Shown: positions 12,017 through 43,527 of the stretch, in pieces
Layout of the letters: every line of letters starts with the position of its first letter
Numbering within the stretch: position 1 is the stretch's first letter
Origin: Escherichia phage vB_EcoS-101114BS4
DNA: 45,251 nucleotides
Sequence record: NC_073061.1
Direction: 5' to 3' (one strand)
The notes under the pieces: generated by a model
Told to the model about the DNA's origin: nothing
Seen by the model: the letters and a program-made list of their open reading frames with translations, nothing else
Databases searched by the model: none
Position numbers and translations under genes: made by a program

Positions 12017-12033
12017 TCGGCGCACATCCCAAA

Positions 12034-12059
12034 GGGGCGGGCTTATGCCCGCCTTTTTT
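12034..12059 (+). terminator. Rho-independent terminator
   Basis: ggggcgggc-ttat-gcccgcc hairpin followed by tttttt. Confidence 0.8.
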
Positions 12060-12074
12060 ATAGGAGCGAATAAA

Positions 12075-12575: not shown

Positions 12576-12676
12576 TATGAATCCGGCTGTTATTGCAGCG
12601 TTGCTGGCAGCGCTGGCGACGAAAGAGAAAGAGGAAGAACCAGTACCGCCGGAAGCACCGGCGCGGGAGGAAGACG

Positions 12677-13030: not shown

Positions 13031-13031
13031 C

Positions 13032-13625: not shown

Positions 13626-14047
13626 TGAGCAATACTCTAATCCGCAAGGCGCTTAACAGCGTAGTTGAAGAATTATCGGTAAGCCTGAGCACTAACCAGC
13701 GCCCGATCAAGGTTAACTGGGAGAACGTGAAGGGCGACCACGCTATCGGCAATGGCGTGTACCTGGAGCCGTACTTGCTTCCGGCACCGACCCAGTTTGT
13801 TGGCATTCAGCAGAAGGGCCGGATCTACGCAGGCGTGTATCAGGTTGCCGTAGTGTTCCCCGCGGGCACTGGCACACAGTATGCGAGCGAACTGGCGGAC
13901 GCCATCGCGACGTCAGACAAATGGCAGGGCGTCAAGATTACCGGCGCTACCTTCCAGCTTCAGGACGCGCCCTACACCAGTTCGGTGATTGAAGATATCG
14001 ACCGCGCCCGCATCGTGGTATCGGTCCTGTATAACTGTTGCGCCTGA
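13625..14047 (+). CDS. Tail terminator / tail completion protein (putative)
   Basis: 140-aa ORF overlapping the upstream stop (ATGA), immediately before the major tail protein gene. Confidence 0.5.
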   Translation: MSNTLIRKALNSVVEELSVSLSTNQRPIKVNWENVKGDHAIGNGVYLEPYLLPAPTQFVGIQQKGRIYAGVYQVAVVFPAGTGTQYASELADAIATSDKWQGVKITGATFQLQDAPYTSSVIEDIDRARIVVSVLYNCCA

Positions 14048-15583: not shown

Positions 15584-15750
15584 AGCGGGACAAGCGGGAC
15601 GTCCCGATCTGTCCCGTTTTGCCCCGCCCCCTGTAAAACTGCATATCTACTCACTTTCATTGCATAAACTCAAAGCGGGACAAGCGGGACGTCCCGATCT
15701 GTCCCGCCCCCTAAATATGCATACCTATTCAGATTTCGTGCATAAAACAA
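15584..15750. repeat. Two tandem units of about 90 bp, each with GCGGGACAAGCGGGAC, the palindrome CGGGACGTCCCG and TGCATA motifs
   Basis: aagcgggacaagcgggacgtcccgatctgtcccg occurs at 15584 and 15674; palindromes at 15595-15606 and 15685-15696. Confidence 0.85.
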
Positions 15751-15907
15751 ACGGGACAGAAAGCGGGACAAACAAGGGGCGGGACAAAGCGGGACAGCAC
15801 CCCGTCCCCGTCAGTGCTGCCGCGGGTTTCAGCCGATCGGGACAGGCGGGACAACTCCCAGTCTTTCAGACTAGACGGGGGTCAATGGCCCCCCTCGTCT
15901 GAGACTG
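15750..15907. repeat. Copy A of a duplicated iteron-plus-hairpin element (copy B at 43319..43527)
   Basis: Four to six GCGGGACA direct repeats followed by the imperfect long hairpin cagtctttcagactagacgggggtcaatggcccccctcgtctgagactg (15859-15907). Confidence 0.85.
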
Positions 15908-26135: not shown

Positions 26136-27662
26136 ATGGCAGCGGGTACTATCTTATTAACCAATAACAGCCGGTCGGTAACGGGGACCGGTACGACGTT
26201 TTCGGCGTTCAAAGCCGGTGATTTCCTTTCTGTCGTAGTGGGGCAAGTCCCCTACACTATCGCGGTTGAATCTATCGAAAGCAACACCGGGCTTACTTTG
26301 GTGCTGCCGTTTGACGGCCCAACGGCATCCGGCCTCGCATGGGATGGCGTTGCGCGCGATACCATGTCGCTGGCAACGATGGGCGTAACAGTCCAGGCAC
26401 AGAAAGCACTGCGTATGCTTATTGCGGACGAGAACAACTGGCGTGCAATCTTCGGCGACGCTGAAGAAATCACAGTTACGTTACCGAACGGCACAGTGAT
26501 GCAGGGTATGTCGTGGGGCTACCTGTCGCAGCTAATGAAGCAGATCGACCCGGTGGAAATGCTCAACCTGCAACAACAAGCCGCCGCATCTGAGGTCGCA
26601 GCGAAAGGATACCGCGACGAGGCCGAAGGCTTCAAGAACGATACTAATACCATCAAGACGCAAACCAACCAGATTAAGACTGATACGCAGGCGATCCACG
26701 ACGCCACCAATACGATCAAGACGCAAACCGACCAGATTAAGACCGATACGCAGGCCATCAAGGACCAGACCAACCAGATTAAGACTGACACTGGCGTTAT
26801 TCGAGATCAGGCCAACACGGCGAAGACTGACGCACAAGCGGCCCGAGATGCAGCGCAGGGATACCGCGACGAAGCCGAAGGCTTCAAAAACTCAATCGAC
26901 CCCACTAAGTTCATGCAGAAGTCGCAGAACCTGGCGGACGTTGCCGACAAGTACGCCGCGCGCAACATTCTGGGGGTGGGCGATGACAGTATCGTTAAAC
27001 ACGCAACATTACGCCTGAACGGTGGCGAATCATTAACATTCAATGAAGTGGAGGCTAACGGCTTAATTCTATCAAACGCCTCGATGGGAATCGACAATTG
27101 GGTAGGCTTCACCATGCATAAATGGTACGCCGACTGGACACGCGCAGGAATTGTGCGTGCGGGTGACACCCACGTGTCAGACTACCGCATCCACGTGTGG
27201 AAGAATGGGGCTACTGAGGCGCTATTCCGCTTCCTGCCGGACGGGCGTCTGATTCAGGGTAACAGCGGCAACCCATCGTCGGCGGAGTTTCAGAAAGCAC
27301 CGCTATCAGACCGGGACGTGAAGAAAGAAATCCAATACACGGACGGCGCGGAAAGTTACAACCGAGTACGGCAATGGCTACCAGCAATGTTTAAGTATAA
27401 GGAGTCGGACGTACAGCGTTACGGCCTTATCGCGCAGGACCTGGCCATGATTGACCCGGAATATGTGCACTTGCTGCCAGGACACGGAATCTACGAGGAC
27501 GTTGTTGTTGGCGTGGACGAGGAAGGGAACGAGATTGTCGAGCAAAAGGAGATCGGATACACCGACGATGTGCTGTCGCTTGACAGTAACGTGCTGTTGA
27601 TGGATCTATGCGCCGCCTTCGTTCACCTGTTGCAGAAAGTAGAAAAGCTGGAAGGTAAGTAA
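26136..27662 (+). CDS. Lateral tail fibre with C-terminal intramolecular chaperone-like domain
   Basis: 508 aa; shaft repeats (TNTIKTQTNQIKTDTQAI); C-terminal segment with SDRDVKKEIQYTD...YGLIAQDL resembles the autoproteolytic chaperone domain of phage fibres and endosialidases. Confidence 0.65.
   Translation: MAAGTILLTNNSRSVTGTGTTFSAFKAGDFLSVVVGQVPYTIAVESIESNTGLTLVLPFDGPTASGLAWDGVARDTMSLATMGVTVQAQKALRMLIADENNWRAIFGDAEEITVTLPNGTVMQGMSWGYLSQLMKQIDPVEMLNLQQQAAASEVAAKGYRDEAEGFKNDTNTIKTQTNQIKTDTQAIHDATNTIKTQTDQIKTDTQAIKDQTNQIKTDTGVIRDQANTAKTDAQAARDAAQGYRDEAEGFKNSIDPTKFMQKSQNLADVADKYAARNILGVGDDSIVKHATLRLNGGESLTFNEVEANGLILSNASMGIDNWVGFTMHKWYADWTRAGIVRAGDTHVSDYRIHVWKNGATEALFRFLPDGRLIQGNSGNPSSAEFQKAPLSDRDVKKEIQYTDGAESYNRVRQWLPAMFKYKESDVQRYGLIAQDLAMIDPEYVHLLPGHGIYEDVVVGVDEEGNEIVEQKEIGYTDDVLSLDSNVLLMDLCAAFVHLLQKVEKLEGK
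26608..26892 (+). repeat. In-frame tandem repeats inside the fibre gene
   Basis: 63-bp unit (accatcaagacgcaaaccaaccagattaagactgatacgcaggcg...) repeated about 2.6 times, flanked by two copies of ggataccgcgacga(g/a)gccgaaggcttcaa. Confidence 0.8.
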
Positions 27663-34036: not shown

Positions 34037-36328
34037 TTACTTCCTATACCGATACATGATGTCGCCTTCGGCGGCAAGTGGGAAACCTTTCGCCCATATA
34101 GGCAGGTCACACATCAGCGCGCAAAGCTCCTCGGTCGTGTAATCGTCGGTGTCCGGCACTTCGGTGATCAATTCATCGTGCACTGACAGGACGATTTCAT
34201 AGCCCGCAGCTTCAACACCAGGCATGGACCATGCGAGAATATCGCGGCACAACGCCTGTACGATGTTCTCCGTAAGTTTGCCGCCGTAGGTATACTGGAA
34301 TCCCCACTGGCGCGTCGTCTGATTCTCGCCCTGATATTTGATGCGGGTACTGGTGCGCTTCTTGCCGGTGTCTTCGTCAATCTCGGTAGTGACAGACAGC
34401 GCGATTCCGGGGTAGCTCATGATTCGCCCTGACGGCAACTCAACCTTCAGCCACCAGCCCGCGGCGTTCGGGTCGTCGCGTTCCTCGTCAAAGGTGGGGT
34501 CGTGCTTCGCCTTCGTGCGCACAATCTTGAGCGCTTTCTTGCCATCCGGGCGAACGTTCGCGCCAGCCCAGTATGCCTTACCTGGATTGCGTATCGCACA
34601 TAACACCGCCTCCTCAAGCTCGGCCCAAAAGGCTACGGTCTTCGGGTGAGATTCACGCCACATACGTTTGATCGCGTCGCAGGTCAACCACACGTTTTTA
34701 GGCAGTATGTAAGTCGGGCGCTCGTCTTTCTTGCCGGGCTTCGGCGGGCGCTTCGCTTCGTTGATGCGGGCAAACTCATAACCGCGTTTAGCCGCCGCCC
34801 AAATATGATCGGGGAATGTTCCCTTCATGACGTCAGCCATTGCGTACAGGTCGAGGCCCAGGTTTTTAGCAAACTGCAAGAACGCCGCGACGCCGCCACC
34901 ATAGCCCAGTCCCAATTCACACGCCTTACCAATCTGGCGTAGGTCTTTGCGGTTGGCTTTGATGTAGTCCGGGTCAAGGCCAAACATCTTACCGGCAGTT
35001 TCACAATAGATATCGCGTCCGGCCTTAAACACCATAAGCGCGGTTTTCTCGCCAGCGATCCAGGCAAGGCCACGCCCTTCCACGTTGGAGTAGTCCGCTA
35101 CAACAAACTTCTTGCCATTAGCCGGGATAATGCACCCGCGAACGGTCGAGGCGGTTAGCTTCGATATGTCATACGCCCAGTGCGCGGTCCCGCGTAACAG
35201 GGAGTTGATGCCGTTGGTGAGCATGTGCGACCGTACCCAAAACGAGACGTCGCTCTCACCTTCGCGGCGCTTAATCTTCCCTTCGTGGTCATCACTGTAC
35301 TCGCCACGTGCCAGGTTTTGAGGCTGAAAGCCTTTACCGGCCCAGCGTAGTGTGCGCTTTGCCCCACCATACTGAAGACAACCACGGCGGCGACCATCGG
35401 CAGAAAGACCATTGACGAGCGGATTGTATTTAGTCGATGCCGTTGATGACGCGCCGAGGCGCATTTCAATAAGCACTTTGCCCTCGTCGGGGAAGTCTGG
35501 ATCTTCCAGCAAGTCATTCAGCGTGGATTTCTGCGCGTTGTGAATGGTGAACGCCGGGGCAATATCACGCAGGATTGGCAGGAAGTCATTACCGGTCAGT
35601 TTACCGCCGAACAGTTCCCAGGCTTCTTCCTTCAATTCTTCTTTGTGCACCTGCACCGCCTTGATCGCGGCGTTCGCCAGGTCAACGTCCACATAGAAGC
35701 CACGGTCGTTAATCAACTGGTCGATACGCAGGATTTCATCTTCCTTTGGTGAGTTGCCCCAGTCCGGTATTCGCCAGTAGACTTCACGCATTGCGATAAT
35801 ATCTAGCGCGGCATAGCGCAGGAATTTAGCCCATTCTTCAGGGTGAGTCTCGCGCGTGTAGCGGCGGATTTTGTAGGTCTTAGGGGTCGGCTTACAAAAT
35901 CGCTTAATCAGCGCCTTGCCTGCCTTATCCTTCGCGTGCTCTGCGTCAACGCCCAGCACCTGGCATTGCATATCGAGGCCACCCGGCAGCGCGTGACGAA
36001 AGGCCATAATCATCGTATCTTCGATCTGGCTTACCGGCAGGTCGATGCCCCACTTTTCACGGATAACCAAGCGGTCAAACAGGAGGCCGTTAGCCATCAC
36101 TATTTTTGCTTTCTTGCGGGTTACCTGGCGTAGCGCCTTGCGCAGTTCACGCGGCATCGTGGGGGATTCAGTGGCGTCCCATGTCTGCACGCGGCCCTCG
36201 TCGATGGCGTAGGTGCAAATCATAATCTCGGTGGATGGGTGTTCTGCATAGGCATACGCACCTGCTTTCTTCAGGTCCACCCCGCTATATGTCTCGGTGT
36301 CAAGAAACAGGCGTTCGAAGTCTTTCAT
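34037..36328 (-). CDS. DNA polymerase I (family A) with 3'-5' exonuclease domain
   Basis: Exo motifs LFLDTETYSG, YAALDI; polymerase motifs DYSNVEGRGLAWIAG (A), RQIGKACELGLGYGGG (B), VLSVHDELITEV (C); 763 aa. Confidence 0.9.
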   Translation of the reverse strand: MKDFERLFLDTETYSGVDLKKAGAYAYAEHPSTEIMICTYAIDEGRVQTWDATESPTMPRELRKALRQVTRKKAKIVMANGLLFDRLVIREKWGIDLPVSQIEDTMIMAFRHALPGGLDMQCQVLGVDAEHAKDKAGKALIKRFCKPTPKTYKIRRYTRETHPEEWAKFLRYAALDIIAMREVYWRIPDWGNSPKEDEILRIDQLINDRGFYVDVDLANAAIKAVQVHKEELKEEAWELFGGKLTGNDFLPILRDIAPAFTIHNAQKSTLNDLLEDPDFPDEGKVLIEMRLGASSTASTKYNPLVNGLSADGRRRGCLQYGGAKRTLRWAGKGFQPQNLARGEYSDDHEGKIKRREGESDVSFWVRSHMLTNGINSLLRGTAHWAYDISKLTASTVRGCIIPANGKKFVVADYSNVEGRGLAWIAGEKTALMVFKAGRDIYCETAGKMFGLDPDYIKANRKDLRQIGKACELGLGYGGGVAAFLQFAKNLGLDLYAMADVMKGTFPDHIWAAAKRGYEFARINEAKRPPKPGKKDERPTYILPKNVWLTCDAIKRMWRESHPKTVAFWAELEEAVLCAIRNPGKAYWAGANVRPDGKKALKIVRTKAKHDPTFDEERDDPNAAGWWLKVELPSGRIMSYPGIALSVTTEIDEDTGKKRTSTRIKYQGENQTTRQWGFQYTYGGKLTENIVQALCRDILAWSMPGVEAAGYEIVLSVHDELITEVPDTDDYTTEELCALMCDLPIWAKGFPLAAEGDIMYRYRK

Positions 36329-36495
36329 TGCTTTATCCTCACTACTGCGTCAGCGCTGCCGATCATGGAGAAGATACCATCCGACAAGGCAATCTCTTCG
36401 CCGTTGTTGCGAATCTCGGCAACGGTAAAATACTCGCCCAGCAATTTGGACCATACACGCATTCCGACTTTTACTTCACTGGCTTTAATACGCAT
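36325..36495 (-). CDS. Small hypothetical protein translationally coupled to the polymerase gene
   Basis: About 56 aa (MRIKASEVKVGMRVWSKLLGEYFTVAEIRNNGEE...); its stop overlaps the polymerase ATG (ATGA). Confidence 0.35.
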   Translation of the reverse strand: MRIKASEVKVGMRVWSKLLGEYFTVAEIRNNGEEIALSDGIFSMIGSADAVVRIKQ

Positions 36496-36510
36496 TTTCA
36501 TTGTCCTAAT

Positions 36511-36534
36511 AAAAAGCCCGCAATAAGCGGGCTT
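36511..36534 (-). terminator. Internal intrinsic terminator between the SSB-like and polymerase genes
   Basis: On the minus strand: gcccgc-uuauu-gcgggc hairpin followed by uuuuu. Confidence 0.6.
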
Positions 36535-36552
36535 GAATAGTGGGCTTTGCCC

Positions 36553-37341
36553 TTAACGGCGGCGACGTTTACGTGGTGCTTCGTCTTCGTCGTCGTCGTC
36601 CTCATCTTCGTCATCGCGGGACTTGCGACGCTTGCGAGGTTTTTCGTCTTCCTCGTCTTCGTCATCGTCATCACGACGCTTGGATTTCTTGGACTTGCGC
36701 GGCTTATCATCTTCGTCATCGTCATCACGACGTTTGGACTTCTTAGCCTTGCGCGGTGCTTCATCTTCGTCATCGTCGCCCAGGTCGTCATCGGAACAAG
36801 AAGACCCGCCGCCACCGAAGGAGTCACCATCGTCACGGAAGCGAAGACCCATCAAGCCAGCACCAAGACCTTTACCGTTGGTGTTGTTCCACGCCCAAAT
36901 ATCCAGGGACACGTTGCAATAACAACCGGAATAGATTTCCTGGCCTTCGATCTCGTCGCCGTCGATGGTCAGACCCTGTTCGGTCTGCTTCTCGCCCAGT
37001 GACGTTTGAATGTTAGGCTGTTTGAACGATTTGGCGTTGATGTACAACATGCCTTCGAATTCTTCGGTTACTTCGTCGCGCTCGTCGCCGTCACGAACTG
37101 CGCATTCCTTAGAATCCTGGGCGTAGTGGCGGTCCATCCACTTATCGGCGTTCTTCTCGGATTTCAGCTTATCGGTAAGCACTGCGCGCGCTGCCGCTTC
37201 CACTTTGTCCACCTGCGGATCTTCTTTATCAAGAAGAATCACGGCACGGTATGCCGGTTTTTGTCCATCCTGTTTAGGGGTATCACGTTCCCAAATTTTC
37301 AGGAAGCATACGCGTACATTTTTCAGGTTGACTTTAGCCAT
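36553..37341 (-). CDS. Putative ssDNA-binding protein with a highly charged repetitive C-terminal tail
   Basis: Start MAKVNLKNVRV with GAGGA RBS; position between nuclease and polymerase as in conserved phage replication modules; C-terminal 80 aa are alternating acidic and basic repeats. Confidence 0.45.
   Translation of the reverse strand: MAKVNLKNVRVCFLKIWERDTPKQDGQKPAYRAVILLDKEDPQVDKVEAAARAVLTDKLKSEKNADKWMDRHYAQDSKECAVRDGDERDEVTEEFEGMLYINAKSFKQPNIQTSLGEKQTEQGLTIDGDEIEGQEIYSGCYCNVSLDIWAWNNTNGKGLGAGLMGLRFRDDGDSFGGGGSSCSDDDLGDDDEDEAPRKAKKSKRRDDDDEDDKPRKSKKSKRRDDDDEDEEDEKPRKRRKSRDDEDEDDDDEDEAPRKRRRR
36575..36790 (-). repeat. In-frame tandem repeats encoding the charged tail of the SSB-like protein
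   Basis: About 57-bp unit repeated about three times (...atcttcgtcatcgtcatcacgacg(c/t)ttgga(t/c)ttcttgg...) giving DDDDEDxKPRKxKKSKRR repeats. Confidence 0.75.
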
Positions 37342-37395
37342 TTTCATTTCCTCATTTCGCATGTATCGGGGTTATTGTGAGCCACCCCGTTCGGC

Positions 37396-37419
37396 TTGGT
37401 TGCTAATTTACTTGGTTGC
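37396..37419. promoter_or_regulatory. Pair of direct TTGGTTGC motifs (reverse orientation of GCAACCAA)
   Basis: cttggttgc at 37395-37403 and 37411-37419 in the gap between genes 37430..37672 and 36553..37341. Confidence 0.5.
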
Positions 37420-37429
37420 GCCTAAGCGG

Positions 37430-37672
37430 TCAAGCACTTTTATTAAAAAGATTTCGTGTCACGTAGTTGGTGGCGTTCTCGATCCAGCTTAACGGCGGGC
37501 GGTCGATGTGCTTCTCAACCCAGTCGACGGCGACGTCGCTATATCCGTCGTCCAGCCAGCGGGATGGATGGCGAATCATCCAGGCCAACATTAACACGCC
37601 TTGCACGCAATGCAGGATAAATCCCAGCGCGCCGAGCATAATCATCAATACGAATGCGAATACCTTATTCAT
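37430..37672 (-). CDS. Small membrane protein
   Basis: 80 aa with N-terminal hydrophobic helices (VFAFVLMIMLGALGFILHCVQGVLMLAWMI). Confidence 0.5.
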   Translation of the reverse strand: MNKVFAFVLMIMLGALGFILHCVQGVLMLAWMIRHPSRWLDDGYSDVAVDWVEKHIDRPPLSWIENATNYVTRNLFNKSA

Positions 37673-39095
37673 TGCTTAAGTCCTCGTCAGTAGCTTCAGA
37701 CCACGCGGGGCGCGGGTCGTCGATTGGTGCCAATACCGGTTTAGCCGGTGCGCGCGTGATTTTATCACACAATTTAGCCCACACTTTCGGTTTCTCGTCC
37801 TTCAATACCTTCTCGGCATCGGTAGGACTGAGCAATGTTTCTTTGTACATTACATCGCGCTTGATCCGGGCCTTCGTGAAGATTTCAATCACTTCGCTCT
37901 CATCCGCCCACTTGCGATTACCTTCCTTACCGGCAACCATCTTGAGGCCCAGCGATTCGCCATCACCCGCCATCACCGCCTTGAATACTGCGGACTCGAT
38001 AGCCTTGATGTGCTGACGCATTGCGTCGAGGCCTTCGTATGCATTACGCAGTTCCGCCGCGCTCATAGCGCCTGGTGCCGCCTCCTTTTTGCCACGCTTC
38101 GCACGTCGTGCCGCTTTCCGGGCTTCGCGGGTCATATTGCGGTCGTGGTTGGCGCATTCTTCCTCTGTCGCCACGCTCACGTCGTCGCCCAGGTCTTCGT
38201 CGGTTGCCGTTGGTGGGGTCATCGTGTCGATGGCGGCCTTAGCGCGGGCACTACACTGATCCGCAAATCGGCACCACTGACAGGCGTCAACGCTCGGTCG
38301 GAAGTCGGCACGGGTAAGTCCCTTCTTGCCTCGGGAATACGCGTCCAGTGCCGCGACCGCTCGCTTGGACGCAAACTTAGCGAATATCTCCAGCGCTTCC
38401 ACTGTAATATCCCACTCCGACGCCCCGCCGCAATACGGCTGGAAGATTACCAGGCGAACGGTCGTAATGTCGTACATGGTTTGCAGCTTGCGCAGCAGGC
38501 CCAGCGCGTACAACATAAGCTGTTTGTTTTCTTTCGCCTCGACCTTATGTCGCCCGGTCTTCAGGTCGCCAACAATAAGCATGTACGTGCCGTCGGTCTT
38601 CTTCATGACCATGACCATATCGGCAGTGCCAAACGTCTTCACCCTGTTGCCGTCTATCTCGAAGCCAGGGTGCAAGATGCGGGTGAGATCGGCGCGCATT
38701 TCAAGCTGGACAAACTCCGCCACTTCAAGGAGCGGTCGCCAGTGGTCGATGTACGCGTCACACTGTTTCACCATATCGTCGTTGACCAGTACGCCGCCTT
38801 TCGGTGCTTTCGGGTGCGCCTTTACCGGCCCCTTACCTTCGTTCTCAACGTAACACCCTTTGTACGTCTTCGCGGATAGCTTCTTCTCTCCGGCAATGAT
38901 GCGGTTTAGCACGACTTCTGATACGGTGTGCATACTCGTACCGTTAATCGCAGCTTGCCCGGATTCGTTCGGGATACCTTTTTCGACTACCAGGGCGGCG
39001 GGGCACCCCATCCATTTTTTAGATCCCGATGGCCCGAGTAATGAGTGTTCGGTATTGCTACCGGATTGCGTTTTGCGCTTTGGTTTAATAGCCAT
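37665..39095 (-). CDS. Cas4/RecB-like PD-(D/E)xK exonuclease with iron-sulfur cysteine cluster
   Basis: N-terminal Cys (WMGCPA), IVGDLKTGRHK and QLMLYALGL nuclease motifs, then CQWCRFADQC (CxxCx5C); 476 aa. Confidence 0.6.
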   Translation of the reverse strand: MAIKPKRKTQSGSNTEHSLLGPSGSKKWMGCPAALVVEKGIPNESGQAAINGTSMHTVSEVVLNRIIAGEKKLSAKTYKGCYVENEGKGPVKAHPKAPKGGVLVNDDMVKQCDAYIDHWRPLLEVAEFVQLEMRADLTRILHPGFEIDGNRVKTFGTADMVMVMKKTDGTYMLIVGDLKTGRHKVEAKENKQLMLYALGLLRKLQTMYDITTVRLVIFQPYCGGASEWDITVEALEIFAKFASKRAVAALDAYSRGKKGLTRADFRPSVDACQWCRFADQCSARAKAAIDTMTPPTATDEDLGDDVSVATEEECANHDRNMTREARKAARRAKRGKKEAAPGAMSAAELRNAYEGLDAMRQHIKAIESAVFKAVMAGDGESLGLKMVAGKEGNRKWADESEVIEIFTKARIKRDVMYKETLLSPTDAEKVLKDEKPKVWAKLCDKITRAPAKPVLAPIDDPRPAWSEATDEDLSNE

Positions 39096-39280
39096 TATTC
39101 CACCCTTGTAAACTGGACAATTACATATTTACAGATATTAGCCATTCCCGCCTGTTCGACACGGCGGTGCACTTCATGCTGCGCATCTATCCAGCACATC
39201 GAGGCGTCATGGTTAACAACCATAAAAGAGAAGTGGTCGTTTGTTTTGTGGCAAGTTGCCAGCACGAAGAATTTAGCCAT
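39095..39280 (-). CDS. Hypothetical protein
   Basis: 61 aa from ATG 39280 (MAKFFVLATCH...), overlapping the upstream stop (TAATG). Confidence 0.4.
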   Translation of the reverse strand: MAKFFVLATCHKTNDHFSFMVVNHDASMCWIDAQHEVHRRVEQAGMANICKYVIVQFTRVE

Positions 39281-39531
39281 TATTTCGTCTCCCAACGGTC
39301 AATTACTTTTTCCTCCGACGATACGGCAAAGCGAACATATTCCAGATTGGAGTCCGCCCAAATATAGAAGTCGGGGTTAGTAAATGTGGTGCGCTTAATT
39401 TGCGCGGGGTTATCGCGGCGTTTATCTATTACGGCAACGCGTGATTTAAAGTTGCCGGTACGTTCGAATAGCCAATAATAAGGGCGCTGGTCGCGTGAAT
39501 CCACCGCCTCGATTAGCGTGAAGCGTGCCAT
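39280..39531 (-). CDS. Hypothetical protein
   Basis: 83-aa ORF (MARFTLIEAVDSRDQRPYYW...) with GAGGA RBS. Confidence 0.5.
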   Translation of the reverse strand: MARFTLIEAVDSRDQRPYYWLFERTGNFKSRVAVIDKRRDNPAQIKRTTFTNPDFYIWADSNLEYVRFAVSSEEKVIDRWETK

Positions 39532-39544
39532 TGTCTCGTCCTCT

Positions 39545-39571
39545 AAAAATAGGCCCGCAGATTAGCGGGCC
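39545..39571 (-). terminator. Internal intrinsic terminator in the leftward operon
   Basis: On the minus strand: ggcccgc-uaaucu-gcgggcc hairpin followed by uauuuuu. Confidence 0.6.
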
Positions 39572-39579
39572 GGATAATA

Positions 39580-39705
39580 TTAATCTTCACCGCCGAGTTG
39601 TCTATAAACCTCGTCCGGGTCGTCGCCTCTTTCTTCGCAGAAGGCGGTGAATGCCGCCCAATTTTCTGCTATGAAATCGAGCGTGATTCTCATTTCATAG
39701 TCCAT
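39580..39705 (-). CDS. Small acidic hypothetical protein
   Basis: 40-aa ORF (MDYEMRITLDFIAENWAAF...) below the ORF-track size cutoff, ending at the internal terminator. Confidence 0.3.
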   Translation of the reverse strand: MDYEMRITLDFIAENWAAFTAFCEERGDDPDEVYRQLGGED

Positions 39706-39709
39706 TATA

Positions 39710-40228
39710 TTAATCTTCTAATTCGAAATAAGTTTCGACGATTGCTTTTAATTCCTGGTGGAACTCTTCCACGTCGTCATCTTCCAGCTTGGCAACGGAT
39801 TTAATTTCGAATTCTTCCAGCAGGTCGTCAAATTCGTCGTTTGCGTCGTCGTCATCACCGCCAGCAATAATAGCGGCATACTGCTTGATTTCGTCGCGCA
39901 TCTCTTTCAGCGGATCGGCATCTTTCTTGCCTTTACCTTTCGCCGGTGCTTTCTTAGATTTCGCCGGGGCTTCTTCTTCGTCGTCCGCGTCGTCTTCTTC
40001 TACGGCTTCTTTCTTAGCCTTGCCCTTTGCTGGCGCTTTTTTGGTCTTAGCCGGTGCTTCGTCTTCAGCGTCGTCATCTTCGACTACTTCTTCTTTTGCC
40101 TTGCCCTTAGCCGGGGCTTTCTTCGCTTCCTGTTTACCAACGGCAGCGCCAGCAGTTTCATAATGCTTAGCGATGGTTTCCAGTGCTACTACGCCGCGTG
40201 TGATCAGGTTTACGATTTGCTCAAACAT
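39710..40228 (-). CDS. Lys/Ala/Glu-rich repeat protein (histone H1-like composition), first gene of the leftward operon
   Basis: ATG 40228 (MFEQIVNL) with GGAG RBS; repeats EAPAKTKKAPAKGKAKKE; the upstream in-frame ORF extension is treated as 5' leader. Confidence 0.55.
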   Translation of the reverse strand: MFEQIVNLITRGVVALETIAKHYETAGAAVGKQEAKKAPAKGKAKEEVVEDDDAEDEAPAKTKKAPAKGKAKKEAVEEDDADDEEEAPAKSKKAPAKGKGKKDADPLKEMRDEIKQYAAIIAGGDDDDANDEFDDLLEEFEIKSVAKLEDDDVEEFHQELKAIVETYFELED

Positions 40229-40424
40229 TGTATATCTCCGATTGGTTAAGTTTAGGTGTCGGCAGTCAACTTCGTCGGTGGCCTTAACATAGTGCCAGGT
40301 TACGCGTTCTCCCTTTCGGGTAGTGGACCTGGTTATATAATCACGGTTGGGAATCCTGACACTTCGATCCGGCCCCTGCGTTGCCCCTCTCCAGTTTGCG
40401 TCCTGCATCCTGTCGACGGAGTGA

Positions 40425-40454
40425 ATAATAGATTGGTTGCAGGTGGGGTGTCAA
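40425..40454 (-). promoter_or_regulatory. Candidate sigma70 promoter for the leftward operon
   Basis: On the minus strand: TTGACA, 18 bp spacer, TATTAT; the spacer contains TGCAACCAAT; leader of about 190 nt to the ATG at 40228. Confidence 0.5.
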
Positions 40455-40465
40455 CAACTAATTTC

Positions 40466-40524
40466 AAAAAAAAAAAAGCGCCGAGGCAAAATGCGACGGC
40501 GCTAACCAATAAGAGACAATGAGA
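40466..40524 (-). ncRNA. Candidate small RNA unit (promoter, about 60 nt, intrinsic terminator)
   Basis: Minus-strand TTGAAA-N17-AATAAT (40532-40560) followed by hairpin gcgccg...cggcgc and a U12 tract (40466-40502); the transcript would contain ugucucuuauugguua. Confidence 0.3.
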
Positions 40525-40573
40525 CGTGATTATTATTACACGCGTGCGCGCCCGTTTCAATATACAAAAGGAG

Positions 40574-40602
40574 TTGACACCCTGCAATTTTAGGTGTAGT
40601 TT
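40574..40602 (+). promoter_or_regulatory. Candidate sigma70 promoter for the rightward operon
   Basis: TTGACA (40574-40579), 17 bp spacer, TAGTTT (weak -10), 30 bp upstream of the ATG at 40634. Confidence 0.4.
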
Positions 40603-40633
40603 CGTTGGTCATTAACCAATAGGAGACAGAACA

Positions 40634-40963
40634 ATGCATATCAACGACGCTATCGAAATGTTAACTAAGACCGTAAGCGGTGAGACAAGCCGGTCCTGGG
40701 CTTATACCGATGCCGTTGGTGCGGCGTTATTTGAAATCGAACGCCTGCGCAGTGTCGAAAAAGAATTGCGCGCCAAGCTGGAATTACTCAACGGTACGGC
40801 AGCAAGCAAGCTGCAAAAACACAATGAAGAAATGGAAGAATACAAAAAGCAGGTTATCCGTTTACGCGACGAGGGCAAGTCCTGGGCGATGATTGCCGAG
40901 TTGACCGGAATTAATCAGAGCACCGTGCGCTCCTGGGTACGCAATAATAAAACTTCTAAGTAA
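40634..40963 (+). CDS. Putative transcriptional regulator with C-terminal HTH
   Basis: 109 aa; C-terminal SWAMIAELTGINQSTVRSWVRN is HTH-like; first gene of the rightward unit. Confidence 0.5.
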   Translation: MHINDAIEMLTKTVSGETSRSWAYTDAVGAALFEIERLRSVEKELRAKLELLNGTAASKLQKHNEEMEEYKKQVIRLRDEGKSWAMIAELTGINQSTVRSWVRNNKTSK

Positions 40964-40973: not shown

Positions 40974-43238
40974 ATGAGCTTAATTAAATTCGCAGTAACA
41001 AGACCCGCTAAAAAAGGCGAAAAAGCCAGGGCGGAAAACTTCGAGATGACCACTGATGAGTTTTTCGAATTTATCAATGATGCGAAAGAAATCTCCTCGG
41101 TGCACATCAACAAGACTGAAGATAAAGCCGAGTATGCGCGCCGCAAGCGTAAGGCCGATGGCATCGTGGCCTATACCAATGATGGGTTACGCCGCAAGAC
41201 CAGTGCGGTCGACCGCTCGATCCTGTTCTTCGATATTGACCGCACCGACACCCGCACATTACGCCGCTGCCGTAAAGCGTTCACCGACGCTGGTCTGGAG
41301 CATGTATTCCACACCACGACCGGCGACCGTCACCCACTGAAAGGCGGCACACGTTGCGCCCGTTTCCTGGTGCTCACTGACAAGCCTGTACCGGCTGAAG
41401 ACCTGGGCCGCGTCCAGTATGCGCTATTAGACCAACTGGGCCTGTCAGATGTGGACTTCGACGATTGTACGAAAGACACCAACCGCCTTATGTACCTGCC
41501 TCACCAGCAGTCTGTCATAAAGTGCCACTACGGAAAGCGCGCCCGTGTCCGTCGTCTGCTTCGCCTGGCTGACAAGCTGGGAGTGGAGAAAGAGGAAGTG
41601 CGCCGCGAACTGACCCAGGGCGCCGATGGCGTGGCGGACGGCATTCTGGATTGGTGCTTCCAGGCTGGCTTTGAACCACTGTCATCCGGTCGCGGTTATG
41701 AAGTGCCTTGCCCGAACGAGCACCTGCATAGCGGCGGCGGGTCGACGGCTATCATGGTTAAGGATGGCGAGATCCGTTTCAAGTGTATGCACACCGGCAA
41801 CGAATGCTGTTCCGAACTGAATAAACACCAGCACCTGGCGCTGCGTCTGATCGGCATCCCGGACCACTTGAACGTTGAACCGCACAACATGTCACGCAAG
41901 CAAATCGCCGCCATCCTTCCGGGACTGGACGACGAGGAAGTGGAATCATGCTATGAACATATTGTTGATGCGGTCGGCGACGGCGACGAGTACGGCGAAT
42001 GCACCGACGCTGACCTGGACAACGAACCTGTTGCACTATTCAGTAAGCACGACCCGATCATCGAAGGCCTGGTCAACTTCAAATCGACCTGGTATCTTGC
42101 CGGTGAGTCGAACATTGGTAAGTCGTTCTACGTGCTGGGCCAGATGGCGTCCGTATCTGCCGGTATTCCGTTTGGTGGCGCGAAGGTCGTCCAGTCGCAT
42201 TGCTTCTATTTCGACGCGGAAGGTGGCGAAGCCTCCAACCAGCGTAAGGAAGCACTGCAGATTAAATACGAGCACGACCTCGACAAGCTGCACATTATCG
42301 ACCTGCAATCACGCGGCTGGGATATTACCAGCAAGTCAGGCTTGCGCGAGGTTATCAGCTTTATCAACCGCACCGCTAACGGGGAGCCGGTTGGCCTGGT
42401 GGCCTTCGACTCACTCAACCAGACTGTAGCGCTGCGGTCCGCTGATGCCAAACCGTTCGACGAGAACAACGCCAGCGATATGGGCGAAGTGGTCAAGGCG
42501 CTGAAGGCCATTGCGGAAAATACAGGCGGCAGTGCGGGCGTCATCCATCACCCGGCTAAGGGTGCAAACGGCAGCAGATCCCCACGCGGGTCCGGCGCGC
42601 TTCATGGTGCTGTCGATTCTGCGTTCTTCCTGGAACAGCCGGACGATAATCAGCCAGGCCAACTCAACCTGTATCACGAAAAATCCCGTAACGGCATCAA
42701 GCAAGCGCCGCGTGGCTTCGTCCTGCTCAAATGCAAGGTGAAGGTGGATCTCCGTAAGTCCGAGGCGTTCGAAGCCCACCAGTCCACCAGCACCGGTCCG
42801 GACTTCGGCGATGTGGTTGCCGGTTGGGACGTCAAGCCAATTGCATCCACGCCACGCGACGAGACTCTCTACCTCGTACCGGTCGCCCTGGCACCGTTCG
42901 CTGTCGAACAGGCTAAGGCCGCAGGCAAGGCCGCAGTTAAGGAAGAGAACACCGCCGGACCGCGCAACGAAAAAGAGAAGGTGCTTTATGCGGCACTGGA
43001 AAAACTGATGGAAGATAACCCGGACCATACTGGATTCAGTAAATCGGCAATTGTCCGCCAGGCTGGACTCGCGAAAGGCGGAACATCGACGAAGGCAATC
43101 GACGATATGGTGGAGCGCGGCGTGCTCGGTTTTTATACAGATCCACACACCGGGGCCATCTATGGGTCGTCGAATCTGGTCATCAAATCGGATATCCCAA
43201 TCACGCTTTCGGCGACCGATGATGACCTGAAAGATTAA
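40974..43238 (+). CDS. Primase-helicase (primase/polymerase N-domain, zinc-binding region, P-loop helicase)
   Basis: 754 aa; ILFFDIDRTD, cysteine-rich CPNEHLH...FKCMHTGNECC, Walker A GESNIGKS, Walker B-like LVAFDSL. Confidence 0.7.
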   Translation: MSLIKFAVTRPAKKGEKARAENFEMTTDEFFEFINDAKEISSVHINKTEDKAEYARRKRKADGIVAYTNDGLRRKTSAVDRSILFFDIDRTDTRTLRRCRKAFTDAGLEHVFHTTTGDRHPLKGGTRCARFLVLTDKPVPAEDLGRVQYALLDQLGLSDVDFDDCTKDTNRLMYLPHQQSVIKCHYGKRARVRRLLRLADKLGVEKEEVRRELTQGADGVADGILDWCFQAGFEPLSSGRGYEVPCPNEHLHSGGGSTAIMVKDGEIRFKCMHTGNECCSELNKHQHLALRLIGIPDHLNVEPHNMSRKQIAAILPGLDDEEVESCYEHIVDAVGDGDEYGECTDADLDNEPVALFSKHDPIIEGLVNFKSTWYLAGESNIGKSFYVLGQMASVSAGIPFGGAKVVQSHCFYFDAEGGEASNQRKEALQIKYEHDLDKLHIIDLQSRGWDITSKSGLREVISFINRTANGEPVGLVAFDSLNQTVALRSADAKPFDENNASDMGEVVKALKAIAENTGGSAGVIHHPAKGANGSRSPRGSGALHGAVDSAFFLEQPDDNQPGQLNLYHEKSRNGIKQAPRGFVLLKCKVKVDLRKSEAFEAHQSTSTGPDFGDVVAGWDVKPIASTPRDETLYLVPVALAPFAVEQAKAAGKAAVKEENTAGPRNEKEKVLYAALEKLMEDNPDHTGFSKSAIVRQAGLAKGGTSTKAIDDMVERGVLGFYTDPHTGAIYGSSNLVIKSDIPITLSATDDDLKD

Positions 43239-43318: not shown

Positions 43319-43527
43319 TTATGCAGTTTTATTGCATAAAGTAAGCGGGACAAAAAGCGGGACAGACAGGGGGCGGGACAAAGCGGGACAGCACCCCTGT
43401 CCCGCCCCGGATGGCGCGGCTTGCAGGGGGGCGGGACAGGCGGGACAAACCCCAGTCTTTCAGACTAGACGGGGGTCAGTTGGCCCCCCTCGTCTGAGAC
43501 TGCATAAAATCCGGGATTGCATAATGT
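43319..43527. repeat. Copy B of the duplicated iteron-plus-hairpin element, flanked by inverted TGCATAA motifs
   Basis: Six GCGGGACA repeats (43345-43450), hairpin cagtctttcagactagacgggggtcagttggcccccctcgtctgagactg (43453-43502), ttatgcag at the left and ctgcataa at the right edge. Confidence 0.85.

What the first reader, a model, noticed from the sequence alone, without database searches (positions are those of the whole stretch)
36553..40228. Two proteins with long alternating acidic and basic repeat tails
The SSB-like protein ends in about 80 residues of DDDDEDxKPRKxKKSKRR-type repeats, and the first gene of the leftward operon (39710..40228) carries EDEAPAKTKKAPAKGKAKKE-type repeats with a similar EDEAP.K.KK signature. 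Both repeats are encoded by tandem DNA repeats. Such zwitterionic low-complexity tails could mimic DNA or histone-like proteins, or drive condensate formation.
Basis: seen in the sequence. Interest (0 to 1): 0.5.

Follow-up and report, generated by a model that had tools for sequence, protein, structure and literature searches.

The report
Charged repeat tails in phage replication proteins
Two replication-module proteins of this E. coli phage (a Dhillonvirus) carry real, selectively maintained stretches of alternating acidic and basic blocks that grow and shrink by whole repeat units; in the single-stranded-DNA-binding protein this is an undescribed variant of the usual short acidic tail, interesting but not a new kind of system.

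Summary
The window is a Dhillonvirus (99% identical to phage vB_EcoS_WFI here).

**SSB gene (36553..37341, minus strand)**
- It is a T7 gp2.5/Enc34-type SSB and the ortholog of the SECphi4 SSB that triggers Retron-Eco8.
- Its last 79 residues are four units of "acidic block, (A/K)P, basic block", predicted disordered.
- Charge is far more segregated than in shuffles (kappa 0.59, z=10).
- dN/dS is as low in the tail (0.06) as in the folded domain (0.05).
- Unit number is 1 in Jersey- and Kagunaviruses, 2-4 in Dhillonviruses and up to 11 in distant homologs.
- About 90% of family representatives instead keep the classical short, purely acidic tail.

**Second protein (39710..40228, minus strand)**
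- The repeats are an internal 76-residue linker, not a tail. It joins a conserved N-terminal helix to a confident, very acidic three-helix domain.
- Linker length runs from 23 to 87 residues among relatives.
- It belongs to an uncharacterised family that leads the duf2800-gp2.5-polA module in many phages.

The shared "EDEAP" signature is no more than composition predicts.

Extra finding: an S/T-D-D/E-D-L motif occurs at the start of the SSB tail and at the C-termini of the primase-helicase and the exonuclease.

Mechanism is inferred only: an elaborated gp2.5-type tail and a charged tether.

The parts
36553..37341 (-). SSB / annealing protein gene (262 aa), T7 gp2.5 / Enc34 ORF6 type
   Evidence: Pfam PF10991 E=6e-32 and phrog_112 E=1e-53. 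Foldseek of the AF2 model: 4klk E=6.5e-13, Enc34 5odl E=2e-12, T7 gp2.5 1je5 E=9e-7. Ortholog of the SECphi4 SSB QJI52528.1.
36814..37341 (-). OB-fold domain (residues 1-176)
   Evidence: AF2 pLDDT is above 90 for residues 1-170. dN/dS is 0.049 among 18 Dhillonviruses.
36781..36798 (-). Proximal acidic motif C-S-D-D-D-L (residues 182-187) at the start of the tail
   Evidence: It corresponds to the family-wide A-S-x-D-D-F/L-x-D stretch after the OB fold. The same motif lies at the C-termini of the primase-helicase and the exonuclease.
36556..36792 (-). Polyampholyte tail, residues 184-262. Four acid/base units: 36727..36792, 36673..36726, 36616..36672, 36556..36615. It ends PRKRRRR.
   Evidence: Kappa 0.59, z=10.4, net charge -10. 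AF2 pLDDT about 50 with no secondary structure. dN/dS 0.061. Whole-unit indels among relatives.
36656..36777 (-). Tandem DNA repeat, period 54 nt, 2.3 copies
   Evidence: Tandem Repeats Finder, 88% matches, score 188.
36514..36534 (-). Intrinsic terminator-like hairpin after the SSB gene
   Evidence: 8-bp stem followed by a T run. Annotated as a terminator in phage WFI.
39710..40228 (-). 'Gene B' (172 aa), the first gene of the leftward early operon. Member of phrog_3127, function unknown.
   Evidence: phrog_3127 E=6e-50. 153 phage records encode it. The upstream in-frame extension is interrupted or absent in relatives, so the start is at 40228.
40154..40228 (-). Conserved N-terminal helix (residues 1-25)
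   Evidence: Invariant M1, L8, R11, V14, A15, E17, I19 and A20 across subfamilies. AF2 helix at residues 2-23, low confidence. dN/dS 0.11.
39917..40144 (-). Disordered alternating-charge linker (residues 29-104). Units: 40058..40126, 39971..40057, 39917..39970.
   Evidence: AF2 pLDDT below 50 for residues 23-101. Kappa 0.48, z=6.2, net charge -1. Length 23-87 aa in 101 Dhillon-type cluster representatives. dN/dS 0.15.
39916..40123 (-). Tandem DNA repeat, period 87 nt, 2.5 copies
   Evidence: Tandem Repeats Finder, 75% matches, score 210.
39713..39916 (-). C-terminal three-helix domain (residues 105-172), net charge -20
   Evidence: AF2 pLDDT about 90, with helices at 106-123, 127-139 and 150-168. 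dN/dS 0.04. hhalign to the C-domains of phrog_408/5053 proteins: probability 76%, E=2.4e-5.
40425..40454 (-). Sigma-70-type promoter (TTGACA, 18-nt spacer, TATTAT; 11 of 12 matches) driving the leftward operon
   Evidence: Promoters are annotated at the equivalent place in HK578.
39552..39571 (-). Strong intrinsic terminator-like hairpin after gene B and the 41-aa ORF
   Evidence: Seven G-C pairs followed by a T run. Annotated as a terminator in WFI.
43209..43235 (+). C-terminal SATDDDLKD of the primase-helicase (the same motif as at the start of the SSB tail)
   Evidence: Conserved as ...[ST]x[DE]DLE at the C-terminus in L004, L023, L027, L028 and L031.
37668..37697 (-). C-terminal EATDEDLSNE of the DUF2800 exonuclease. 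A second, internal copy, TATDEDLGDD, lies at 38181..38210.
   Evidence: Conserved as ...[ST][DE][DE]DL[AE] at the C-terminus in L004, L023, L027, L028, L031 and L036.

Best explanation
**Shown**
- Both features are translated, disordered, strongly charge-segregated segments (blocky polyampholytes). They sit in two proteins of the phage's duf2800-gp2.5-polA replication/recombination module.
- They expand and contract by in-frame gain and loss of whole repeat units, and they are under purifying selection.
- The SSB is a T7 gp2.5/Enc34-type OB-fold protein. The family's usual short acidic C-terminal tail is replaced here by 1 to 11 units of 'acidic block, (A/K)P, basic block'. This phage has four.
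- The tail stays net negative. It begins with a conserved S-D-D-D-L motif that also ends the primase-helicase and the exonuclease.
- Gene B has a conserved N-terminal helix and a conserved acidic three-helix domain, joined by a linker whose length is free but whose charge character is kept.

**Inferred**
- The S-D-D-D-L motif and the acidic blocks do what the gp2.5 and Enc34 tails do. They would occupy the protein's own DNA-binding groove and so enforce ssDNA selectivity. They would also dock onto a common partner of the SSB, helicase-primase and exonuclease, most likely the family-A DNA polymerase, as in T7.
- The interspersed basic blocks would add reversible electrostatic contacts to neighbouring tails and to DNA. 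That would raise cooperativity and multivalency on ssDNA, with strength tuned by copy number.
- In gene B the linker would act as an extended, flexible charged tether, comparable to the TonB/TolA spacers. It would set the reach between whatever the N-helix and the C-domain bind.
For: **SSB identity**
- Pfam and PHROG matches, PDB sequence matches and fold matches.
- Orthology to the SECphi4 SSB, which triggers Retron-Eco8 (bioRxiv 10.1101/2022.08.27.505566).

**Disorder and blockiness**
- AF2 confidence profiles and kappa against shuffles.

**Selection**
- dN/dS is 0.061 for the tail against 0.049 for the OB fold, and 0.149 for the linker against 0.040 for the C-domain.
- 98% of 117 zwitterionic tails are net negative, mean charge -10.8.
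- The alternation persists in homologs of only 27-35% identity.

**Copy-number series**
- One unit in Jerseyvirus and Kagunavirus.
- Two to four units in 18 Dhillonviruses, with deletions at unit boundaries.
- Up to 11 basic blocks elsewhere.

**Derived state**
- With an OB-only query free of word bias, 134 of 149 family representatives have tails without any basic block.

**Shared motif**
- It occurs 4 times in the window against 0.04 expected, and it is conserved at the homologs' C-termini.

**Gene B architecture and synteny**
-, with the profile comparison.

**Tail function in relatives**
- PMC5686142 reports that removing the Enc34 tail allows dsDNA binding, and that the T7 tail binds the polymerase and the helicase.
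Against: - No experiment or complex prediction bears on what the basic blocks or the linker do.
- The tail ends in PRKRRRR, not in the acidic-plus-aromatic tip that T7 gp2.5 needs, so the T7 analogy may fail at the tip.
- Copy number varies from 2 to 4 among viable laboratory phages, so the extra units are individually dispensable.
- One database genome (22664B1) has the tail frameshifted by a 2-nt insertion. If that is real, the tail is not essential.
- dN/dS in low-complexity, gapped alignments is rough, and the 153 pairs are not independent.
- The partner of the S-D-D-D-L motif is unknown.
- The gene B C-domain has no significant PDB match, so its role is open.
Confidence: 0.5

Rival explanations
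1. Condensate scaffolds. The SSB tail and the gene B linker are multivalent blocky polyampholytes. By complex coacervation with each other and with ssDNA they would assemble a membrane-less replication/recombination compartment in the infected cell.
For: - Kappa is very high (0.59 and 0.48), a sequence property associated with self-coacervation (general polymer-physics knowledge).
- E. coli SSB forms condensates through its disordered linker and acidic tip (PMC7584906).
- Both proteins are early and are probably abundant. Gene B lies directly behind an 11/12 consensus promoter and upstream of a terminator.
- Charged-tail SSBs and charged-linker gene B homologs co-occur in seven divergent lineages.
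Against: - Nothing here tests phase behaviour.
- One-unit tails (Jerseyvirus, Kagunavirus) have low valency.
- Gene B-like proteins also occur beside classical acid-tailed SSBs in PBC1, LP.1 and Javan389, so the pairing is not specific.
- There is no correlation between SSB unit number and gene B linker length among 18 Dhillonviruses.
Confidence: 0.2
2. Tolerated slippage products. The repeats are low-complexity DNA that expands by replication slippage or unequal recombination. The protein only needs a hydrophilic appendage or spacer; the alternating pattern itself has no function.
For: - Copy-number polymorphism among near-identical phages.
- The gene B linker can shrink to 23 residues with no acidic block (P0097).
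- A frameshifted SSB tail exists in database entries (P0125, P0130).
- Unit 2 of 22664B1 is an exact copy of unit 1, which points to recent unequal exchange.
Against: - dN/dS of aligned tail codons is 0.06, as low as in the folded domain.
- The alternation, the (A/K)P junction and the net negative charge are kept across homologs of only 27-35% identity.
- All relatives examined keep at least one unit in the SSB and at least one basic block in gene B.
Confidence: 0.12
3. Gene B is an early host-takeover or anti-defence protein. Its strongly acidic three-helix domain would act as a DNA mimic (like Ocr, Gam or gp5.9), and the K/A/P blocks would be a histone-H1-like DNA or RNA anchor.
For: - It is the first gene behind the strongest early promoter.
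- The C-domain has net charge -20 in 68 residues.
- It sits upstream of an exonuclease/annealase pair, as gam sits relative to bet and exo in lambda (own knowledge).
- A published study notes that its Dhillonvirus isolate (phage #34) encodes no clear functional equivalent of T7 gp5.9 (PMC13434337).
Against: - The homologous C-domains in PBC1, LP.1, Javan389 and BD26P4 are close to neutral, from +2 to -4 by hand count from the sequences. Acidity is therefore not a family property.
- The gene is locked in synteny with the replication module across phyla rather than sitting in a variable accessory region.
- There are no significant matches to PDB structures, Pfam families or NCBIfam families.
Confidence: 0.15

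Closest known systems
Bacteriophage T7 gp2.5 and Enterobacter phage Enc34 ORF6 (Pfam PF10991, T7-type SSB / annealing proteins)
   Same: The OB-fold variant matches in sequence and in predicted fold. The gene sits in the same duf2800-gp2.5-polA module (PMC8093625). The C-terminal segment is disordered and net negative, and it begins with the family's acidic-hydrophobic motif.
   Different: The characterised members have short (about 20-30 aa), purely acidic tails; T7 gp2.5 ends in Phe and Enc34 ORF6 in Val. Here the tail is 79 aa, 35% Lys/Arg, built of four tandem acid/base units, and ends in PRKRRRR. Only about 10% of family representatives have any basic block.
SECphi4 SSB (QJI52528.1), the trigger of Retron-Eco8
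   Same: It is the direct ortholog, in the same gene order and the same genus.
   Different: It has three tail units instead of four. The published work displayed only residues 1-186 and did not analyse the tail (bioRxiv 10.1101/2022.08.27.505566).
E. coli SSB: OB fold, intrinsically disordered linker, acidic tip (DDDIPF)
   Same: The logic is modular: a DNA-binding core plus a disordered C-terminal region that controls cooperativity, partner binding and condensation (PMC7584906). Some distant homologs of the window's SSB carry the alternating repeats followed by a DDDDLPF-type tip.
   Different: It is a different OB-fold family, a tetramer, with a Gly/Gln/Pro-rich uncharged linker. The window's tail has no IPF tip.
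phrog_3127, with phrog_408/5053/3709/18562 (uncharacterised small proteins upstream of DUF2800 exonucleases)
   Same: Gene B matches phrog_3127 (E=6e-50). It shares the architecture and the slot in the module with PBC1_027, the Vibrio LP.1 'coil' protein, Javan389_0014 and BD26P4_00047. The architecture is an N-terminal helix, a charged linker and a C-terminal helical domain.
   Different: In the Dhillonvirus version the linker is a tandem-repeat polyampholyte and the C-domain is unusually acidic. No member has a known function.
TonB (Glu-Pro/Lys-Pro) and TolA domain II charged spacers
   Same: All are alternating-charge, Pro/Ala/Lys/Glu-rich segments that join two functional ends. One source named a gene B homolog 'TonB', and BD26P4_00047 weakly matches TolA.
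   Different: The resemblance is compositional only. There is no homology, no membrane anchor and a cytoplasmic context.

Membership tests
T7-type SSB (Pfam PF10991 Enc34_ssDNA-bd / DUF2815) | Sequence match above the curated Pfam threshold | tested here: met
   111.1 bits against a cut-off of 26, E=6.2e-32, residues 10-200. phrog_112 E=1.3e-53.
T7-type SSB (Pfam PF10991 Enc34_ssDNA-bd / DUF2815) | OB-fold variant like the solved members | tested here: met
   AF2 model with pLDDT above 90 for residues 1-170. Foldseek: 4klk E=6.5e-13, 5odl (Enc34 with ssDNA) E=2.1e-12, 1je5 (T7 gp2.5) E=8.7e-7.
T7-type SSB (Pfam PF10991 Enc34_ssDNA-bd / DUF2815) | Conserved aromatic residues that stack on ssDNA (T7 Y158 and the Enc34 aromatic stacks) | tested here: inconclusive
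   Y137 and G139 are invariant in the alignment of 46 homologs, within the IYSGCY stretch. A residue-by-residue superposition on 5odl or 1je5 was not made.
T7-type SSB (Pfam PF10991 Enc34_ssDNA-bd / DUF2815) | Placement in a duf2800-gp2.5-polA gene module with no other ssb gene nearby | tested here: met
   DUF2800 at 37665..39095, SSB at 36553..37341 and family-A polymerase at 34037..36328, all on the minus strand. The module is described in PMC8093625.
T7-type SSB (Pfam PF10991 Enc34_ssDNA-bd / DUF2815) | Short, purely acidic C-terminal tail ending in a hydrophobic or aromatic residue | tested here: not met
   The tail is 79 aa, with 35% K/R and 48% D/E, and ends in RRRR. 134 of 149 family representatives do have the classical tail. 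The fold and domain place the protein in the family, but its tail departs from this feature.
T7-type SSB (Pfam PF10991 Enc34_ssDNA-bd / DUF2815) | Preferential ssDNA binding and strand annealing | not testable with these tools
   This needs biochemistry. The SECphi4 ortholog activates Retron-Eco8, the system reported to sense phage SSB by binding of its msDNA (PMC13402713).
Bacterial SSB-Ct tip (DDDIPF) clients | C-terminal D-D-D-I/L-P-F motif | tested here: not met
   It is absent from the window's SSB. It is present in distant homologs P0196 (DDDDDLPF) and P0237 (DDDEIPF).
phrog_3127 (gene B family) | Full-length profile match, conserved N-helix and C-domain, and first position in the operon divergent from the HTH/primase-helicase genes | tested here: met
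   E=6.3e-50 over profile positions 1-178. Alignment A1 gives the invariant residues. Synteny is seen in L004, L027, L028, L031 and L037.
DNA-mimic proteins (Ocr, Gam, gp5.9 type) | Homology or fold similarity to a known mimic, or a surface charge array that matches the DNA backbone | tested here: not met
   No PDB fold match with E below 0.2 and no significant Pfam or NCBIfam match. Only the bulk acidity fits (net -20). Surface geometry was not analysed.
Histone-H1-like / 'PAKKA' basic-repeat DNA-binding tails | Lys/Ala/Pro-rich repeats shown to bind DNA | not testable with these tools
   The AKKAPAKGKAKK blocks fit by composition. They alternate with acidic blocks, so the linker's net charge is about 0.
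Blocky-polyampholyte condensate scaffolds | High fraction of charged residues with strong charge segregation | tested here: met
   Fraction of charged residues 0.84 with kappa 0.59 (SSB tail), and 0.54 with kappa 0.48 (linker). Both exceed all 1000 shuffles.
Blocky-polyampholyte condensate scaffolds | Demixing in vitro or foci in vivo that depend on the charge pattern | not testable with these tools
   This needs experiments.

The most novel reading that the evidence does not exclude
In Dhillonviruses, Guernseyvirinae and related phages, the replisome and recombination proteins would be organised by two electrostatic devices.

The first is a shared S/T-D-D/E-D-L docking motif on the SSB, the primase-helicase and the exonuclease.

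The second is a pair of copy-number-tunable polyampholyte regions, the SSB tail and the gene B linker. Together with ssDNA they would co-assemble a condensate-like phage replication/recombination factory.

Repeat number would then be an evolvable dial for the material properties of that assembly, and possibly for how visible the SSB is to SSB-sensing defences such as Retron-Eco8, Hachiman or Sir2-HerA.
Probability: 0.12. Interest if true: 0.7.

Novelty: new variant of a known kind. Interest (0 to 1): 0.4.

Why it matters
T7-type SSBs are a textbook case of an acidic C-terminal tail that gates DNA binding and recruits the polymerase and the helicase. A sizeable natural subgroup replaces that tail with tandem acid/base units, from 1 to 11 copies. 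This includes easily grown E. coli phages of the BASEL and SECphi collections.

That gives a ready-made series for asking how charge patterning and valency in a disordered tail tune SSB cooperativity, annealing and partner recruitment. It could also show how they affect recognition by the growing list of defence systems that sense phage SSBs.

The shared S/T-D-D/E-D-L motif suggests a testable hub interaction in a replisome that has not been studied biochemically.

Gene B marks a widespread, unstudied accessory protein of the duf2800-gp2.5-polA module.

None of this is a new kind of system, and charged low-complexity regions in phage proteins are common.

Tried and rejected
1. **Common origin or gene conversion between the two repeat arrays.** Rejected. 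The shared EDEAP peptide and the DNA similarity are what composition and codon usage predict.
2. **The 232-aa extended ORF (start at 40408) for gene B.** Rejected. The extension carries stops or frameshifts, or is missing, in 8 of 21 relatives, while the GGAG-ATG at 40228 is conserved.
3. **A structured RNA in the roughly 190-nt leader.** No signal. The fold z-score is -0.73, and no Rfam family matches anywhere in the window.
4. **Function for gene B from fold or profile searches.**
   - The PDB gave nothing significant.
   - BFVD gave only uncharacterised phage proteins.
   - Pfam and NCBIfam gave only low-complexity noise.
   - The weak lambda Red-beta C-domain and Sak hits (E=0.65 to 9) are not evidence.
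   - The afdb50 library was unavailable.
5. **An acidic gene B C-domain paired with a basic-tipped SSB tail, as a binding pair.** Dropped. L039 has an acid-tipped SSB with an acidic C-domain, and the supporting cases are essentially one clade.
6. **Matched lysine/arginine usage between the two regions within a genome.** This does not hold by inspection. The window's tail mixes K and R, while its linker uses K only.
7. **The profile search for distant gene B relatives.** It returned only the two subfamilies already known.
8. **A locus scan with the diverse OB-fold alignment.** It failed for lack of a conserved stretch.
9. **Published triggers in Dhillonviruses.** HK578 gp43, the P2 OLD escaper, is the 83-aa neighbour and not gene B. 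The gene behind the Retron-Eco7 trigger in phage98 could not be identified from the text.

Full report
**What the window is.** The region 36400..40700 is 99% identical to Escherichia phage vB_EcoS_WFI. It matches 175 phage records, nearly all Dhillonvirus (HK578-like E. coli siphophages). The finding spans the leftward early operon. Its parts, in order, are:
- a promoter at 40454..40425;
- 'gene B' at 39710..40228;
- a 41-aa ORF and then a terminator;
- 83-aa and 66-aa ORFs;
- a DUF2800 PD-(D/E)XK exonuclease at 37665..39095;
- an 80-aa ORF;
- the SSB at 36553..37341 and then a terminator;
- a 58-aa ORF;
- a family-A DNA polymerase at 34037..36328.

An HTH protein and a primase-helicase are transcribed divergently. 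This is the duf2800-gp2.5-polA module described in PMC8093625.

**Checking the observation.** Tandem Repeats Finder reports a 54-nt period (2.3 copies, 88% matches) at 36656..36777. It also reports an 87-nt period (2.5 copies, 75% matches) at 39916..40123.

The SSB's last 79 residues (184-262) read as four units:
- DDDLGDDDEDEAPRKAKKSKRR
- DDDDEDDKPRKSKKSKRR
- DDDDEDEEDEKPRKRRKSR
- DDEDEDDDDEDEAPRKRRRR

Gene B residues 29-104 read AKKAPAKGKAKEEVVEDDDAEDE / APAKTKKAPAKGKAKKEAVEEDDADDEEE / APAKSKKAPAKGKGKKDA.

Charge segregation is extreme. Kappa is 0.59 (z=10.4) for the tail and 0.48 (z=6.2) for the linker, and no shuffle out of 1000 reached either value. The features are therefore real and non-random. 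Because they occur in more than 150 independently sequenced phages, they are not assembly artefacts.

- Gene B does not carry a tail. The repeats form a linker between a conserved N-terminal helix and a conserved C-terminal domain.
- The 'similar EDEAP.K.KK signature' is not evidence of relatedness. The longest shared peptide (5 residues) has P=0.10 under full shuffling and P=0.36 when the charge pattern is kept. The best DNA local alignment scores no better than synonymous re-coding of the same peptides (P=0.43).

**The SSB.**
- It matches Pfam PF10991 (Enc34_ssDNA-bd) at 111 bits against a cut-off of 26, and phrog_112 'Gp2.5-like'.
- By sequence it matches the solved DUF2815 proteins and Enc34 ORF6.
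- An AlphaFold2 model has pLDDT above 90 for residues 1-170 and about 50, with no secondary structure, for the tail.
- Foldseek finds 4klk (E=6.5e-13), Enc34 ORF6 with ssDNA (E=2e-12) and T7 gp2.5 (E=9e-7).
- It is the ortholog of SECphi4 QJI52528.1. That protein was shown to trigger Retron-Eco8 and was described as structurally homologous to T7 gp2.5. Only residues 1-186 were shown there, so the tail was not analysed (bioRxiv 10.1101/2022.08.27.505566).
- An SSB from another Dhillonvirus isolate (phage #34) also triggers type III Sir2-HerA (PMC13434337).

**How unusual the tail is.**
- The characterised family members have short, purely acidic tails. In Enc34 ORF6, 16 of the last 29 residues are D or E, and removing the tail lets the protein bind dsDNA. 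The T7 tail binds the polymerase and the primase-helicase (PMC5686142).
- My full-length search returned over a hundred cluster representatives with 2-11 acid/base units, even at 27-35% identity. That search is biased towards low-complexity words.
- I therefore repeated it with the OB domain alone, using HMMER over 1.8 billion representatives. Of 149 scorable hits, 134 have no basic block (median tail 26 aa, acidic, hydrophobic end). Fifteen have at least one.
- The polyampholyte tail is therefore a derived minority state of the family, concentrated among the window's nearest relatives.
- It comes in two flavours. One ends in an Arg/Lys run (Dhillonvirus, Guernseyvirinae). The other ends in a classical acidic tip (…RSRDDDDVA, …DDDDDLPF).
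- 98% of 117 such tails are net negative, with a mean charge of -10.8.

**Copy-number series.**
- Jerseyvirus Ent2 and Kagunavirus K1ind3 have one unit (…DDLEDDEEDEAPRRERRRR).
- The Serratia phage Otaku and the 40-kb metagenomic group have three.
- Among 18 Dhillonvirus genomes, one has two units, five have three (including SECphi4 and HK578) and twelve have four. The gaps fall at unit boundaries.
- Aligned tail codons have dN/dS 0.061, against 0.049 for the OB fold. The frame is therefore translated and the residues are constrained, even though whole units come and go.
- One record, vB_EcoS-22664B1, has a 2-nt insertion at the start of the tail that shifts the frame. I cannot tell whether this is a sequencing error or a viable variant.

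**A shared motif.**
- The tail begins …SSCSDDDLGDD. This corresponds to the family-wide A-S-x-D-D-F/L-x-D stretch after the OB fold.
- The primase-helicase ends …SATDDDLKD. The exonuclease ends …EATDEDLSNE and also contains TATDEDLGDD internally.
- The pattern [STAC][ST]D[DE]D[LFI] occurs exactly these four times in all ORFs of at least 60 aa in the six frames, against 0.04 expected.
- I defined the pattern after seeing it. However, the C-termini of the primase-helicase and exonuclease homologs in the 40-kb group, Jerseyvirus, Kagunavirus and Otaku also end in [ST]x[DE]DL[EA], as does the L036 exonuclease.
- In T7, the acidic tail of gp2.5 is implicated in binding the polymerase and the primase-helicase (PMC5686142). 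That the gp4 tail also binds the polymerase is my own knowledge. By analogy I infer a common docking motif here, with the polymerase as the most likely partner. This is inference only.

**Gene B.**
- It matches phrog_3127, of unknown function.
- Homologs share an N-terminal helix (invariant M1, L8, R11, V14, A15, E17, I19, A20) and a C-terminal domain.
- The linker ranges from 23 to 87 residues in 101 Dhillon-type cluster representatives. It has 0-3 acidic and 1-5 basic blocks and a net charge near zero.
- AlphaFold2 gives a confident three-helix bundle for residues 106-168 (pLDDT about 90), disorder for residues 23-101, and a low-confidence N-helix.
- dN/dS is 0.11 for the N-helix, 0.15 for the linker and 0.04 for the C-domain.
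- There is no significant PDB fold match. BFVD returns only uncharacterised phage proteins: eiAU gp46, St162, the MB78 13.88-kDa protein and PBC1_027.

**Gene B in other phages.**
- A homolog is the first gene after the divergent HTH/primase-helicase unit and lies upstream of DUF2800, DUF2815 and PolA. This holds in the 40-kb group, Jerseyvirus, Kagunavirus, Otaku and L037.
- In the same slot, several other phages carry proteins of the same architecture: an N-helix, a charged E/K/A/P linker and a C-terminal helical domain. They are Bacillus phage PBC1, Vibrio phage LP.1, Streptococcus phage Javan389, Phocaeicola phage BD26P4, L038 and L039. The four named phages' proteins belong to phrog_408/5053/3709/18562.
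- A profile-profile comparison of the C-domains gives probability 76% and E=2.4e-5 in the expected register.
- Gene B is therefore the Dhillonvirus form of a widespread, unstudied accessory protein of this module.
- A charged linker of free length is a family trait. The tandem-repeat polyampholyte form and the very acidic C-domain (net -20) are clade-specific.

**Mechanism.**
- What is shown: the identity, disorder, charge pattern, selection, copy-number dynamics and synteny of both features.
- What is inferred for the SSB: the tail is an elaborated gp2.5-type tail. The proximal S-D-D-D-L motif and the acidic blocks would compete with DNA for the OB groove and dock partners. The basic blocks would add reversible tail-tail and tail-DNA contacts that raise cooperativity and valency.
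- What is inferred for gene B: the linker is an extended charged tether.
- Rivals: condensate scaffolding (compatible but untested; E. coli SSB is a precedent, PMC7584906), neutral slippage products (contradicted by dN/dS and by the deep conservation of the pattern), and gene B as a DNA mimic or anti-defence protein. The last fits its position and acidity. It does not fit the near-neutral homologous domains in other phages or the tight synteny with replication genes.

**Novelty and score.** Both genes are present and annotated in many genomes, as 'hypothetical' or as SSB, and the SSB ortholog has been used experimentally. I found no paper that describes the alternating tail, the shared motif or the gene B family. 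I rate this a new variant of a known kind, of moderate interest (0.4). It offers a clean, testable natural series for tail charge-patterning in a textbook protein family. It does not offer a new type of system.

Noticed in passing
43209..43235 (+), 37668..37697 (-), 38181..38210 (-), 36781..36798 (-): The acidic motif [ST]-D-[DE]-D-L occurs four times in the window against 0.04 expected. It lies at the C-terminus of the primase-helicase, at the C-terminus and internally in the DUF2800 exonuclease, and at the start of the SSB tail. It is conserved at the same C-termini in divergent relatives. It may be a common docking motif, like the T7 gp2.5 and gp4 tails.
   Followed up: partly
15585..15852 and 43345..43446: There are two dense clusters of the heptamer GCGGGAC: 9 copies in one and 7 in the other, mostly in one orientation. 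The window holds 23 copies in all against 9 expected. One cluster is in an apparently non-coding stretch before the 900-aa ORF at 15920. The other is just downstream of the primase-helicase gene. They look like binding sites for a regulator, or iterons.
   Followed up: partly
39758..40249 (+) and 36547..37002 (+); L003 4699..5193: The repeat-coding DNA leaves long open frames on the opposite strand (163 aa and 151 aa). In phage Haito_Bas83 the antisense ORF (Bas83_0052) is annotated instead of gene B, although an intact 173-aa gene B is present. This is probably a mis-call.
   Followed up: yes
L032 (vB_EcoS-22664B1), equivalent to window ~36785: A 2-nt insertion (GGGCGACGCGATG against GGGCGACGATG) shifts the SSB tail into another frame, so the annotated protein ends …KGKAHYSSPLIAGFLLGQ. 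That record's unit 2 is also an exact copy of unit 1. This is either a sequencing error or a natural tail-less variant. P0130 shows the same kind of shift.
   Followed up: partly
40229..40424 (-): A leader of about 190 nt lies between the consensus promoter and the gene B start codon. Most of it is missing in some relatives (L003, L007, L010, L012) and it is frameshifted in others. Several records nevertheless annotate a 207-239-aa extended protein, for example SECphi4 QJI52533.1 and Opt212. There is no RNA-structure signal (z=-0.73) and no Rfam match.
   Followed up: yes
40634..40963 (+): The 109-aa protein divergent from gene B has only helix-turn-helix Pfam matches (HTH_23/28, Sigma70_r4_2). 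In public records it is variously named 'DNA recombination nuclease inhibitor gamma', 'transposase' or 'resolvase'. These names look like propagated annotation errors.
   Followed up: partly
39280..39531 (-): This 83-aa ORF (phrog_4965) is the ortholog of HK578_043. A single-nucleotide deletion in it lets HK578 escape the P2 OLD defence (bioRxiv 10.64898/2026.07.10.737580). It is therefore dispensable and linked to what OLD senses.
   Followed up: partly
26632..26773 (+): Another in-frame-sized tandem repeat (period 63 nt, 2.3 copies, 81% matches, with a nested 21-nt period) lies in the structural-gene half of the genome. It was not examined.
   Followed up: no
L038 6308..6835 and 8001..8879; L039 4050..4487 and 7534..8439: In two unrelated metagenomic phages the SSB has 5-8 acid/base repeats followed by a classical acidic tip (…DDDDDLPF, …DDDMA). 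The gene B-like protein of the same genome carries blocks in a similar style (EDEKPAKKKAPEKKAPAKK; DEAPRGRGRPPKE). The recurrence is suggestive but was not tested statistically.
   Followed up: partly
L027 7676..10774 and 11368..13833: In Jerseyvirus vB_SenS-Ent2 the polymerase and the helicase of the same module are annotated as interrupted by inteins. HNH endonuclease genes sit between module genes in L004, L036 and L039. The module seems to be a hotspot for selfish elements.
   Followed up: no
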